64,000 bases of DNA, from the NCBI RefSeq assembly GCF_016026235.1, contig NZ_CP065613.1; one strand, given 5' to 3'. The stretch's first letter is position 1. Every line of letters begins with the position of its first letter. Source of the DNA: Escherichia coli (GTDB taxonomy: Bacteria > Pseudomonadota > Gammaproteobacteria > Enterobacterales > Enterobacteriaceae). Below, piece by piece: positions 12,001 to 15,000 of this stretch. Position numbers: made by a program.

Positions 12001-15000
12001 AATCGATGTTGAGTATGCCATCGCTTTGTGATGACGCGATTCAAGTCGAACGACACCTTCAGTTGAAGAACTCAACGTCCATCCGATAGAGCTGTCTGGA
12101 AATACCTTGGGTGCACGAGACCAGAATTCTGTCAATATCTTGAAGCGCCAAGAAGTCCCCCAGTGAGGGTCTAGCCCAATGAAGTTAGGTGCAATCGCAC
12201 CTTCGACAAGCACACCATGCATGTCTTTGAATGATGCAAACAGGTCTACTGTTCCACGGGAAAATGGGCTGAGCGTCCCCTCTTGAGCATCTGTAAATTT
12301 CCAATAACTTTCTAATTCTTCCAGATCGTTGAGACTATCAAAAATCGTGATGAAATCCGCTAATGGAAACAAACGAGTTGGCTTTGAGGGGAGATTGATG
12401 GAATTAAACGCAGTACCCGCGAGTGTAACGACAATAACGATGTGAAGCTCATCGACGCTAGGTTCTGCACCAACTCTAGATAGAGAAAGGAAACGTCCAT
12501 CATCAAGACGGAAGAAAATCGGCGATCCACGACTCACCTTGGCGTATATGCTTTCCGCTGCGTTTGACAGGCGGTCATTAGATGTATGGTCACATGTGCA
12601 AATGAGATATATCCCAGAATTACCCAGTATAATACAACTGATAGGCAGGTCTTTGCAGGCGGTGCCGTCAACATACAGAGTCAAAGGCCCTATAAGGGTT
12701 CTTTGGAATCGCTCAGCGACAAACTCTGCAAGTTTCCTGTGCGTAGAGGGGCTAATCCCGTTCAGATTTTTGTTAGCCCAATGGTCAATAATGAGACCCG
12801 GTGCACTGCGTACTGACATTGGTATCCATACCCTATCCATCTCGACAGCAAGGAAAGGTAGCGCCATGCCTTGCATCACTGCATTTCCGAACGCATCCGG
12901 TTTCAGCGGTGCTTTGAAAGTGCCAACACGAGTATCGAACGTACACCCTGCTTTCTTTCGGCGGTTCGCTAGCTCATTGCCAAGTTGTTGAAGCAAAGAC
13001 TTGCAAGTCAACCAGAAGTCTTCAGTAGCTAGTTCAACATCAGCACATTGGGCCTCGGTGTTGACAGAGAGCATCAACTCAGGAATCGATTCGATGATCT
13101 GCGCTTGCAGCGCAATGGCAAGATCCATATGGGCTTGTGCTTCTGGAATATGAGCATAGGTAATGCGAAATGCTTCTACGAAGTCAGACATTCTCTCAAT
13201 GCAACTCCCGTAGAACATAGGGACGAAGTCTTGACCAAGCCGTACTTTGATTTGCCCCCAATCAGCCTCGGGGGAAAAATCCTCAAGCATTGGGAATTCA
13301 GGCCATGATGCGTATAATTCTTTTGTAAATACTTTAAAATCTACATAGCTATCAATCGATATACCTACCTGAGACTCAAATGGCAGCTCTAAAAGGACAC
13401 ACCAAGCAAAAATATGCTTTATGGGGCTACCTGTATTGGCTGGCCAGAGTTCGGAAGTAAATAATGCAACTGCTACGTCGAGGGTTTTGTATCGGCGAAA
13501 TAAATTCTGGGTGGCTTCCAGATGCTTACAAAAGTATGTGTCTTCACCTACCCCATTCGTAAACAATTCACGATATCTGGACATATCGTGTATCAAAGAA
13601 TCATAATCAACCTTTTGCTCTGTTAGTTTTCTTTCCCGCTTTTCACGTGACTTCCTACCCACTTCATATCCTCCCTGTATGCATACGTTGACAGTCTATA
13701 CGGTATCGAAGCATAGAAATTATTAATGCGTATCATAATGAATATCTTGAGTCACTTACTGTACCGCCCTCACAAAAGTGCATAGCCTCAAACTATCAAA
13801 CACATCCGACAAATTGTTACATTTATATTATTGCAACCATAAAACCCAATAATTTGATAAATAATAAATTTTTCTTATTTCAACTAGTCACACTTCAGAT
13901 TGGTTTACATAACTTTAGCGCAAATCACTGTTTGCCAATAATCACTTCTTCAAAAGCGGCTTTCACATTTTCATCCTCCGCTATCCGCCCTGATCAGTTA
14001 CCACAGCTAATGCAGACAATGCGAAATGCCAACATTATTTTGCCTACTCGATGCTTGTTCATGTGGCAACTTCTAACTATCTCACGACCCGCAGAAGCGG
14101 CAGAAGCTCGTTGGGATGAGATCGATTTTGAAGCTAAAGAATGGAAAATTCCTGCAGCTCGAATGAAGATGAACCGGGACCATACGGTTCCGCTAGGTTC
14201 GCGAGGCCTGAGCTTGGCGCAGCTATCGCCAGCAGAATCACCGCTGATGCAAGTGGCGCAGGCGCAGTTAAAGCATCTGTTACCCGCACATCTGATGGCT
14301 TCATTTTCGCCGTTTTTTAGTCAAGCGGGACACACTTCCTAGCCACAGCAAACGGGCGCTGAGAGAGTGGGAATGGCCGCAGAAGGTGCGGGTGGTCGCG
14401 GCCAGTCAGCCGCTCCTACCACCGGTGATCCAGGAAGGCATGTTTGACGCGGTCAGTGAAGCGCTTTACCAAGACCCTTGGCTGAACATTGATTACCGCA
14501 ATGCTCAAGATACTCGCCGTCAGGCGGAGGTGATGCCCCTTGGTTTTAGTCCTACAGGGCTCACGTCTGCAAAGCTAATGGGAAGAGTGTGGTACTCACT
14601 CTCTCCCATATAATCTTCCAAACTATGGCGAAACAGGCGTTAGCGGTTTTTTTACTTTGCTCAAAATCCAGGCATCAATCTCGGATTCTAGCCACCCCAC
14701 CGTCTTTGCTCCCAGTTTCACCCTTTGGGGAAATGTCGGATCATGACGATCAGAACTAGGGTCAAGCCAGTCGTATACCATTGAACGCCCAATGCCTAAC
14801 TTCTTGACAAGTGCAGGTACACGAAGGATTTTTACAGACTTTGGTTCCATTAAAGAGCTTCCTCTCTTGGTTTGCTTAGGATGGAAGTCAGACTATCTAC
14901 TGATGCAACTGTGCGACATACGGCTGCAGTACTTCATTTTTTACGGAGCTTAACTGATTGAATAATGGATAATTTTAGTTTTAACGATTTTATCGTTGAT

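What the first reader, a model, noticed from the sequence alone, without database searches (positions are those of the whole stretch)
14192..14622. Decayed junction segment of unknown origin between the int fragment and the AlpA-like gene
Similarity to int stops abruptly at 14191. The next ~430 bp are GC-richer than the surroundings, carry no convincing gene (only a 75-codon ORF, 14386-14613, without motifs) and end at the convergent AlpA-like gene. It may be a remnant of another element's attachment region or a piece of core gene carried in by recombination.
Basis: seen in the sequence. Interest (0 to 1): 0.3.

Follow-up and report, generated by a model that had tools for sequence, protein, structure and literature searches.

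The report
Dead fragment of WYL regulator gene
The "unknown" 430 bp are the broken, frameshifted middle third of a WYL-domain regulator gene that in other bacteria heads a Juk-type anti-phage cassette, plus the 3' flank of alpA: an ordinary deletion scar with no likely function.

Summary
In detail: int similarity stops at 14191, the next ~430 bp are GC-richer (0.555 vs island mean 0.459), and there is no intact gene. The origin is now known and every base is accounted for. 14194-14569 (+) is an internal fragment (codons 77-200 of 330) of a wHTH-WYL-WCX regulator gene. It is 92% identical in DNA to an intact gene of Mixta theicola and 87-88.5% identical to genes on Citrobacter, Enterobacter and Raoultella plasmids. 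It carries two +1 insertions and a premature stop, and its lineage-specific substitutions are neutral (16 non-synonymous: 5 synonymous). 14571-14622 is the conserved 3' flank of the convergent alpA gene, including a hairpin. In intact relatives the WYL gene leads a ~11 kb cassette (JukA-like, PDC-M40B-like, radical SAM, PHP and others). In Mixta it lies directly downstream of an ssrA-linked integrase, so a ~1.2 kb deletion explains the int/WYL junction. The wHTH, half the WYL domain and the WCX domain are missing, so the remnant is almost certainly non-functional. The 75-codon ORF is a by-product. The segment is not an att remnant and not a core gene. The scar occurs in 11 of 5,426 complete E. 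coli genomes. Low interest.

The parts
13983..14191 (+). Internal fragment of a second, diverged P4/CP4-57-type integrase gene (int'), shown as context for the left junction
   Evidence: 84.7% identical to the resident intact intA (window 85-293) and 79% to the Mixta theicola int (L007 8800-9008). Pfam Phage_integrase E=4.4e-15, covering only profile positions 3-77 of 172. PGAP annotates 13980-14225 as an integrase pseudogene missing both termini. Its last ~30 bp are really WYL sequence.
14192..14193 (.). Left deletion junction: two bases (GC) that cannot be assigned to either side
   Evidence: Base-level comparison of the window with the int side and the WYL side of Mixta L007. There is at most 1-2 nt of microhomology, which points to illegitimate joining. 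The join happens to keep int' and WYL' in the same reading frame.
14194..14569 (+). Pseudogene fragment of a wHTH-WYL-WCX (WYL-domain) transcription regulator gene: codons 77-200 of 330 (linker helices plus the first ~2/3 of the WYL domain). The wHTH, the rest of the WYL domain and the WCX domain are missing.
   Evidence: DNA identity is 92.3% to Mixta theicola L007 10227-10600, 87-88.5% to L005, L006 and L008-L010, 90.5% to L003 and 86.4% to L004. The stitched translation finds homologs at E=7e-33. Intact relatives are annotated 'WYL domain-containing protein'. The intact Mixta protein scores 43.1 bits on Pfam WYL at residues 158-223. Window-lineage substitutions are 16 non-synonymous: 5 synonymous, which is neutral, whereas intact genes show dN/dS 0.05-0.14.
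14336..14342 (+). First frameshift (+1 T in TT at 14336-14337) and the resulting premature TAG stop at 14340-14342
   Evidence: The window reads ACACACTTCCTAG where all intact relatives read ACACAC-TCTTAG. The int'::WYL' reading frame (ORF 13854-14342) stops here.
14544..14547 (+). Second frameshift (+1 T in the T run)
   Evidence: The window reads GGTTTTAG where all intact relatives read GG-GTTAG or GG-GCTAG.
14386..14613 (+). The 75-codon ORF, a by-product. Residues 1-53 are WYL codons 140-192 read in the original frame between the two frameshifts. The last 22 residues are out-of-frame WYL sequence plus read-through into the alpA flank.
   Evidence: The weak Pfam WYL hit covers residues 19-53 only. 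There is no promoter-like site upstream, and the GTG start has only a poorly spaced GAAG in front of it.
14570..14570 (.). Right deletion junction (one unassigned base; 14571 could belong to either side)
   Evidence: WYL homology ends at 14569. alpA-backbone homology from L012-L016 ends at 14571.
14571..14622 (-). Conserved 3' flank of the AlpA-family gene, with a hairpin at 14580-14607 (terminator-like, weak U tract)
   Evidence: About 87% identical to the sequence downstream of alpA in Erwiniaceae and other loci (L012-L016). The homology stops exactly at 14571, and those loci remain alike beyond that point while the window does not. RNA fold gives -24.7 kcal/mol, z=-3.1. Differences between loci fall in the loop and the bulge. 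Rfam gives only sub-threshold miRNA-hairpin hits.
14623..14850 (-). AlpA-family gene: the end of the conserved island backbone and the right-hand neighbour of the segment
   Evidence: Pfam Phage_AlpA E=7.6e-17. Homologs lie at the end of the same backbone (antirestriction, GTPase, DUF3987/YfjI, YfjJ/Gp2-like, AlpA), followed by variable cargo.

Best explanation
The segment is a deletion scar made of two known pieces. Window 14194-14569 is the dead middle third (codons 77-200 of 330) of a WYL-domain (wHTH-WYL-WCX) transcription-regulator gene on the + strand. Window 14571-14622 is the normal 3' flank and hairpin of the convergent alpA gene. In intact form this regulator is the first gene of a ~11 kb, horizontally spread cassette: WYL, a JukA-like sensor, a PDC-M40B-like protein, radical SAM, PHP phosphatase and two more genes. 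In Mixta theicola the cassette sits directly downstream of an ssrA-linked integrase. Inferred history: an ssrA island once carried int' -> WYL-Juk-type cassette -> ... alpA backbone. One deletion of about 1.2 kb fused mid-int' to WYL codon 76/77. A second removed everything from WYL codon 201 through the rest of the cassette, ending 51 bp past the alpA stop. The 5' half of int' was lost where the present intA + NACHT cargo module joins. The remnant then accumulated two +1 frameshifts and neutral substitutions. Because it lacks the DNA-binding wHTH, a complete WYL ligand-binding domain, the WCX dimerisation domain and its own promoter, it has no regulatory function. The 75-codon ORF and the in-frame int'::WYL' ORF are accidents. 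Shown: the identity of both pieces, the boundaries, the frameshifts, the neutral substitution pattern and the int->WYL adjacency in Mixta. Inferred: the order and number of deletion events, whether they occurred in E. coli or in a donor, and the lack of function.
For: Identity: the stitched translation hits WYL/YafY-type proteins at E=7e-33. DNA identity is 92.3% to Mixta L007 and 87-88.5% to five other intact genes over 14194-14569. The intact genes are annotated WYL domain-containing. The intact Mixta protein passes Pfam WYL (43.1 bits against a 21.8 cut-off) and has a weak WCX match. More than 3,500 family members were found, many with WYL+WCX. All 30 significant PDB matches of the AF2 model are wHTH-WYL-WCX regulators: DriD 2.6e-14, then PafBC, CapW and BrxR. 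Decay: there are two +1 insertions and a TAG stop. The 21 window-specific substitutions at sites invariant in four intact genes split 16 non-synonymous: 5 synonymous, matching the 3.1:1 ratio of sites, against dN/dS 0.05-0.14 among intact genes. Junctions: the Mixta locus runs smpB-ssrA-int-WYL on one strand, with window 13983-14191 matching L007 8800-9008 and window 14194-14569 matching L007 10227-10600. alpA-backbone homology ends at 14571, abutting the end of WYL homology. Cassette: JukA E=2.4e-59 and PDC-M40B E=5.6e-63. The cassette is 94-95% identical across genera. The Juk preprint reports WYL genes among the commonest jukA neighbours. An independent deletion of the same cassette in L003 also leaves a WYL stub. 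Context: this is an ssrA/CP4-57-type island with an intact intA at its edge. The region beyond alpA holds different defence cargo elsewhere, for example CBASS. GC: the same part of the Mixta gene is 0.59 GC, which explains the local rise.
Against: No intermediate was found: no E. coli-type island has an intact int'-WYL cassette next to this alpA backbone. The int' fragment is only 79% identical to the Mixta int while the WYL fragment is 92% identical, so Mixta is a model of the arrangement and not the donor. The order of events and where they happened are therefore inferred. Lack of expression was not tested; only a consensus promoter scan was run. All 11 E. coli copies are 99.8-100% identical, so conservation within E. 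coli cannot tell neutrality from constraint. The neutral signal comes from comparison with other genera over only 124 codons.
Confidence: 0.9

Rival explanations
1. The same identity (a WYL gene remnant), but the already-fused int'-WYL' fragment arrived as a block by recombination with another island or plasmid and did not decay in place within the E. coli ssrA island.
For: The fragment has no other relative in 5,426 E. coli genomes. Its closest relatives are in other genera and on plasmids. Its GC content is foreign to the island. int' is a different allele from the resident intA (84.7%). The island is visibly mosaic, with IS1 and indels between strains.
Against: Nothing separates this from in-situ decay. 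The right junction falls inside the alpA backbone flank and the left neighbour is int', as expected if the cassette once occupied this very slot. No donor carrying the fused fragment was found in the plasmid, phage or genome collections.
Confidence: 0.25
2. The remnant has been exapted: the 75-codon ORF (14386-14613) or the in-frame int'::WYL' chimera (ORF 13854-14342, called as a 93-aa hypothetical protein in some annotations) is expressed. It would act, for example, as a partial WYL or linker peptide that interferes with WYL regulators.
For: The left junction keeps the reading frame. The chimeric ORF has been called as a protein by some pipelines (P0006). The fragment is retained in all 11 genomes.
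Against: Substitutions are neutral (16:5), including L->P, R->P and S->P changes within helices predicted for the intact relative. Two frameshifts are present. No promoter-like site was found on the + strand and the ribosome-binding sites are poor. The wHTH, the complete WYL fold and the WCX dimerisation domain are all missing. An in-frame join has a 1-in-3 chance. Retention is explained by recency, since the copies are 99.8-100% identical.
Confidence: 0.03
3. One reading: a remnant of another element's attachment region, or a piece of core chromosomal gene carried in by recombination.
For: It lies next to an integrase fragment, where an att copy could be expected after tandem integration. It also has a higher, chromosome-like GC content.
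Against: No match to the ssrA 3' end or spacer in 13600-14700. No tRNA or tmRNA fragment. No match anywhere else in E. coli chromosomes. The whole stretch is explained instead by the WYL gene and the alpA flank.
Confidence: 0.02
4. The gene is really intact and the frameshifts are sequencing or assembly errors.
For: One metagenomic relative (L004) is full length but riddled with frameshifts that look like long-read errors.
Against: Eleven independently sequenced complete E. coli genomes share the same sequence at 99.8-100%. Regardless of the indels, the first 76 and the last 130 codons are simply absent.
Confidence: 0.01

Closest known systems
DriD (Caulobacter crescentus wHTH-WYL-WCX transcription activator that senses ssDNA; PDB 8TP8, 8TPK, 7TZV)
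   Same: DriD is the closest solved relative of the intact parent protein. The profile search gives E about 1e-5 over the WYL+WCX region. Foldseek gives E=2.6e-14 at 22% identity, with more than 310 aligned columns covering all three domains. The size (~330 aa) and the domain order are the same.
   Different: Only 22% identical. The parent gene heads a mobile Juk-type defence cassette and not a chromosomal DNA-damage regulon. Whether it activates or represses, and what ligand it binds, are unknown. The window copy retains only the linker and part of the WYL domain, and is dead.
BrxR / CapW family (WYL regulators of BREX, CBASS and other defence islands; PDB 7QFZ, 7T8K, 7TB5, 9C5G)
   Same: They share the wHTH-WYL-C-terminal dimerisation architecture. 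They also share the genomic logic: a regulator placed at the head of an anti-phage system inside a mobile defence island (abstracts and text). The fold-level match is E=3e-7 to 4e-5.
   Different: There is no significant sequence similarity (profile against BrxR 7QFZ gives E=0.6) and identity is 10-15%. The associated system is Juk-like, not BREX or CBASS. The parent protein is not a member of the BrxR family as narrowly defined by Picton et al.
WYL genes next to jukA (Juk 'jumbo phage killer' system neighbourhoods, bioRxiv 10.1101/2022.09.17.508391)
   Same: In all six intact loci the WYL gene overlaps and precedes a gene matching PADLOC JukA (E=2.4e-59). The preprint states that WYL-domain genes are among the most frequent defence-associated neighbours of jukA.
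   Different: The cassette here is larger than jukAB. It includes a PDC-M40B-like protein, radical SAM, PHP and two further genes, and it has not been tested. In the window nothing of jukA or the other genes remains.
Gene remnants and partial integrases in E. coli CP4-57-type ssrA islands
   Same: It lies in an island at ssrA with intA, alpA, yfjI, a yfjJ-like gene, the yfjP GTPase, yeeU/cbtA and ypjA, ending at glaH-gabDTP as in K-12. Such islands are mosaics carrying IS elements and pseudogenes.
   Different: This particular scar (int'::WYL') is rare (11 of 5,426 genomes). PGAP records only the int part, and wrongly extends it ~30 bp into the WYL fragment.

Membership tests
WYL-domain (wHTH-WYL-WCX) transcription regulators | WYL domain (Pfam PF13280) above the gathering score | tested here: inconclusive
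   The window's 75-codon ORF scores 15.3 bits against a 21.8 cut-off (E=0.02). The stitched fragment scores E=0.003 on PADLOC WYL. Only ~43 of ~66 domain residues survive. The intact relative, 92% identical in DNA, scores 43.1 bits, so homology is certain even though the domain here is incomplete.
WYL-domain (wHTH-WYL-WCX) transcription regulators | N-terminal winged helix-turn-helix DNA-binding domain | tested here: not met
   The fragment begins at codon 76/77. The wHTH of the intact protein (residues ~6-74 in the model; present in P0004 and in L005-L010) has no counterpart in the window.
WYL-domain (wHTH-WYL-WCX) transcription regulators | C-terminal WCX / dimerisation domain | tested here: not met
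   Homology ends at codon 200. The WCX region (residues 259-309 of the Mixta protein; PF25583 in many homologs) is absent from the window.
WYL-domain (wHTH-WYL-WCX) transcription regulators | Uninterrupted reading frame | tested here: not met
   There are two +1 insertions (14336/7 and 14544-7) and a TAG stop at 14340. The window copy is therefore a pseudogene fragment of this family, not a member in working order.
BrxR family (sensu Picton et al. 2022) / CapW | Significant sequence similarity to BrxR or CapW | tested here: not met
   The family profile (A3) against the PDB gives BrxR 7QFZ at E=0.6 and no CapW hit at E<=1. Only fold-level similarity is seen (E about 1e-6, 10-15% identity).
Juk-type defence cassette (regulator plus JukA) | A JukA (YaaW-like) gene immediately downstream in the same orientation | tested here: not met
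   This is met in all intact relatives (PADLOC JukA E=2.4e-59). In the window the WYL fragment abuts the alpA flank at 14570 and no JukA sequence remains.
Integrative-element attachment site (attL/attR copy of the ssrA 3' end) | A direct repeat of the att core (3' end of ssrA) | tested here: not met
   blastn-short of the ssrA 3' part plus the spacer against the window finds no hit in 13600-14700 and only chance 10-15-mers elsewhere. ARAGORN finds no tRNA or tmRNA fragment there.
Known structured RNA (Rfam) | A match at the gathering score | tested here: not met
   Only two miRNA-precursor hits far below threshold (22.6 bits against 80, and 20.7 against 95), both on the alpA-flank hairpin.

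The most novel reading that the evidence does not exclude
The most novel reading not excluded is that the remnant is not inert. The in-frame int'::WYL' chimera (13854-14342) or the 75-codon ORF might be expressed and modulate WYL-type regulators or integrase activity. Alternatively, the GC-rich stub might be kept as a spacer or insulator between the divergent NACHT-operon promoter region and the convergent alpA terminator. A separate point lies outside the window: the parent ~11 kb WYL-JukA-PDC-M40B-radical SAM-PHP cassette may be an uncharacterised extended Juk-type defence system.
Probability: 0.03. Interest if true: 0.4.

Novelty: already known. Interest (0 to 1): 0.12.

Why it matters
The practical value is mainly for annotation:
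- It assigns an origin to an unannotated stretch.
- It corrects the PGAP integrase pseudogene, which runs ~30 bp into unrelated WYL sequence.
- It shows that the 75-codon ORF and the 93-aa "hypothetical protein" called in some genomes are artefacts.

Biologically, it is one small, clean record of defence-cassette turnover in the variable slot between int and alpA of an ssrA island. A Juk-type cassette once sat where, or next to where, a NACHT module now sits, and related backbones carry CBASS in the same slot. An independent deletion of the same cassette in another lineage also leaves a WYL stub. This fits the established picture of defence islands as hotspots of gain and loss and adds nothing conceptually new.

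Tried and rejected
run in near and distant modes. It found only the same locus in 11 genomes, so it could not reveal the origin.
- **NCBIfam on the stitched fragment:** no hit.
- **phmmer of a chimeric full-length relative against PDB sequences:** no hit. A family profile was needed.
- **My first motif guess:** I took "GRVWYSL" at the end of the 75-codon ORF for the WYL motif. That was wrong. This part is out of frame and lies in the alpA flank; the true homology ends at "AEVMPLG".
- **Plasmid search for the alpA module (14572-15700):** no match. Contexts had to come from protein look-ups.
- **Phage collection:** no match.
- **att-remnant hypothesis:** rejected.
- **Structured RNA:** rejected.
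- **Promoter and terminator scan:** nothing relevant on the + strand.
- **BrxR-family membership:** rejected at sequence level.
- **Foldseek TM-scores:** low (~0.3) despite a match probability of 1.0. My reading, which was not tested, is that the monomer AF2 model (pLDDT 72.9) does not reproduce the inter-domain geometry of the solved dimers. I therefore use the result only for family assignment, not for mechanism.
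Full report
**Observation**

The descriptive part of the finding is accurate.
- DNA similarity to integrase genes covers window 13983-14191 and stops there. It is 84.7% to the island's own intact intA at window 85-293, 79% to a Mixta theicola int and about 82% to K-12 intA.
- The next ~430 bp are GC-richer: 0.555 against a mean of 0.459 (sd 0.059) for equal-sized windows in the island. Only 4.4% of those windows are as high.
- There is no intact gene. The only sizeable internal ORF is 14386-14613 (75 codons, GTG start).
- The segment ends at the stop codon of a convergent AlpA-family gene (14623-14850, minus strand; Pfam Phage_AlpA E=7.6e-17).

BLASTN against 5,426 complete E. 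coli genomes finds the segment in only 11 of them, always in this same locus at 99.8-100% identity, and nowhere else even at blastn sensitivity. It is therefore not a piece of E. coli core genome, and E. coli alone cannot reveal its origin. PGAP annotates only an integrase pseudogene (window 13980-14225, missing both termini) and then nothing until alpA.

**What it is**

Two adjacent reading frames of the + strand read like the linker and the start of the WYL domain of WYL-type regulators. The 75-codon ORF gives a weak Pfam WYL hit (E=0.02). A translation stitched across the two frames finds real homologs (E down to 7e-33), some named 'YafY' regulator.

One homolog, P0004, has an intact N-terminus that runs '...RPYGWRWRV-GSRGLSMAQLSPAES...'. 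This shows that the window's copy starts inside the gene. DNA comparison then fixes the anatomy:
- Window 14194-14569 is 92.3% identical to Mixta theicola L007 10227-10600.
- It is 87-88.5% identical to intact genes in Citrobacter sp. and Yersinia rohdei, and on plasmids of C. freundii, E. asburiae and R. planticola.
- All of these genes are annotated 'WYL domain-containing protein'.
- The fragment corresponds to codons 77-200 of a 330-codon gene.

Relative to every intact copy the window has:
- a +1 T at 14336/7, which produces a TAG stop at 14340-14342;
- a second +1 T in the run at 14544-14547.

The 75-codon ORF is simply WYL codons 140-192 read between the two frameshifts, followed by 22 codons of out-of-frame sequence and read-through.

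**The last 52 bp**

Homologs of the alpA gene lie at the end of a conserved backbone: antirestriction, GTPase, DUF3987/YfjI, YfjJ/Gp2-like, a variable gene, then AlpA. Their DNA matches the window at about 87%, from alpA through its 3' flank and exactly down to window 14571. WYL homology ends at 14569.

The two blocks therefore abut, with one unassigned base between them, and nothing in 14192-14622 remains unexplained. The flank contains a stable hairpin (14580-14607; -24.7 kcal/mol, z=-3.1). Its stem is kept in the other loci, and the differences fall in the loop and the bulge. It is plausibly the alpA terminator, but this was not tested.

**Evidence of decay**

At sites invariant in four intact genes the window has 21 private substitutions: 16 non-synonymous and 5 synonymous. 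That equals the 3.1:1 ratio of non-synonymous to synonymous sites, so the changes are neutral. The intact genes differ from one another at dN/dS 0.05-0.14. Several of the changes replace residues with proline in helices predicted for the intact relative.

**The parent protein**

- The intact Mixta protein passes Pfam WYL (43.1 bits, residues 158-223) and has a weak WCX match.
- It belongs to a family of more than 3,500 proteins of ~320-330 aa, many carrying WYL+WCX.
- A family profile finds DriD and PafBC in the PDB (E about 1e-5) but BrxR only at E=0.6.
- An AF2 model (pLDDT 72.9) has 30 significant PDB matches, all wHTH-WYL-WCX regulators: DriD first (2.6e-14, 22% identity), then PafBC, CapW and BrxR.

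From the literature (abstracts; text), such proteins bind DNA through the wHTH, dimerise through C-terminal domains and sense ligands in the WYL domain; for DriD, CapW and PafBC the ligand is ssDNA. The window fragment lacks the wHTH (residues ~6-74), the last third of the WYL domain, the WCX domain and the gene's promoter. It therefore cannot work as a regulator.

**What the parent gene does elsewhere**

In all intact loci the WYL gene overlaps and precedes a gene matching PADLOC JukA (E=2.4e-59). After that come:
- a PDC-M40B-like protein (E=5.6e-63);
- a radical-SAM protein;
- a PHP phosphatase;
- two further genes;
- a convergent GT9 glycosyltransferase.

This ~11 kb cassette is 94-95% identical across Mixta, Citrobacter, Yersinia and the plasmids, so it has spread recently by horizontal transfer. 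The Juk preprint notes that WYL-domain genes are among the most frequent neighbours of jukA, so the association is already known.

**How the scar arose (inferred)**

The window is a CP4-57-type island at ssrA. smpB-ssrA-intA lie just left of the window, the intact intA ends near window 687, and the island ends at ypjA / glaH-gabDTP.

In Mixta theicola the layout is smpB-ssrA-int-WYL cassette, all on one strand. The two window pieces map to L007 8800-9008 (int) and 10227-10600 (WYL). A single deletion of about 1.2 kb in such an arrangement gives the window's left junction. That junction has at most 1-2 nt of microhomology and happens to be in frame.

A second deletion runs from WYL codon 201 to 51 bp beyond the alpA stop and removed the cassette. 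Related backbones continue to resemble each other beyond that point while the window does not.

The 5' half of int' is missing where the AT-rich upstream region of the 1260-aa/NACHT operon begins (13663-13982). This is consistent with the present intA + NACHT module having been added or exchanged on that side.

Two further observations fit frequent turnover in this slot:
- The region beyond alpA carries CBASS in Erwiniaceae.
- An unrelated lineage (L003) has deleted the same Juk-type cassette by a different ~8.6 kb deletion, also leaving a WYL stub.

The order of events, and whether they happened in E. coli or in a donor, cannot be decided. No intermediate was found, and int' is less similar to the Mixta int (79%) than the WYL piece is to the Mixta gene (92%).

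**Controls**

- No copy of the ssrA 3' end or att core near the segment.
- No tRNA or tmRNA fragment.
- No Rfam family.
- No phage match.
- No promoter-like site on the + strand.

**Verdict**

This is a real but ordinary feature: a neutral, truncated and frameshifted remnant of a WYL-domain regulator gene, fused to an integrase fragment on one side and to the alpA 3' flank on the other. Interest is low. The value lies in annotation and in a small illustration of defence-cassette turnover.

Noticed in passing
L007 9731-20570 (Mixta theicola); also L005, L006, L008-L010: A ~11 kb cassette is 94-95% identical across genera and plasmids: a DriD-like WYL regulator, a JukA-like protein (PADLOC E=2.4e-59), a PDC-M40B-like 532-aa protein, radical SAM, PHP phosphatase, a 376-aa and a 263-aa (glycosyltransferase-like) protein, and a convergent GT9 glycosyltransferase. 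It looks like an extended, untested Juk-type defence system.
   Followed up: partly
L003 1-1043 (Logan SRR33025865) against L007 10425 / 19005: There is an independent ~8.6 kb deletion of the same cassette in another lineage. It joins WYL codon ~142 to the inside of the GT9 gene and creates the chimeric 236-aa ORF P0004.
   Followed up: yes
window 13854-14342: The int'/WYL' deletion junction is in frame. A chimeric ORF of up to 162 codons results, and some annotations call a 93-aa 'hypothetical protein' from it (P0006, seen on 135 contigs).
   Followed up: partly
window 13980-14225 (PGAP pseudogene in NZ_CP082100.1): The annotated integrase pseudogene extends ~30 bp past the true end of int homology (14191) into WYL-derived sequence, because the frame is kept.
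   Followed up: yes
window ~16428 (against L011 16429-17018 of strain MS15047): The window lacks about 590 bp that are present in MS15047. The missing stretch covers the 3' end of the YfjI-family gene (412 aa here against 485 aa) and the intergenic region towards the Gp2/YfjJ-like gene.
   Followed up: partly
L012-L015 8466-13647 (Erwiniaceae), downstream of the alpA homolog: The region just beyond alpA in related island backbones carries a CBASS system (SAVED, SMODS, Cap2 E1/E2, JAB) and an AbiJ-like gene. Here it carries a NACHT protein plus a 1260-aa protein. The slot appears to be a variable defence-cargo site.
   Followed up: partly
window 14580-14607 (minus strand, 15-42 nt after the alpA stop): A conserved hairpin lies here (GGGAGAGAGUG...CACUCUUCCC). 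Its stem is maintained in L012 and L016, and the changes fall in the loop and the bulge. It is terminator-like with a weak U tract.
   Followed up: partly
L007 8161-9129: The Mixta theicola ssrA-linked int ORF stops after 322 codons, short of the ~410 expected, so that integrase may itself be disrupted.
   Followed up: no
window 5448-13662 (minus strand): A two-gene unit encodes a 1260-aa protein with no annotated domain, followed by a 1475-aa NACHT-domain protein. An AT-rich (0.34 GC) upstream region at 13663-13982 abuts the int' fragment. It is probably a defence module. At least its upstream end (13700-13982) has no megablast match outside the same few E. coli genomes; the genes themselves were not searched separately.
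   Followed up: no
window 31088-31163 (minus strand): ARAGORN calls a tRNA with a CAT anticodon as tRNA-Met. The window and MS15047 differ in content between about 26.3 kb and 34 kb.
   Followed up: no
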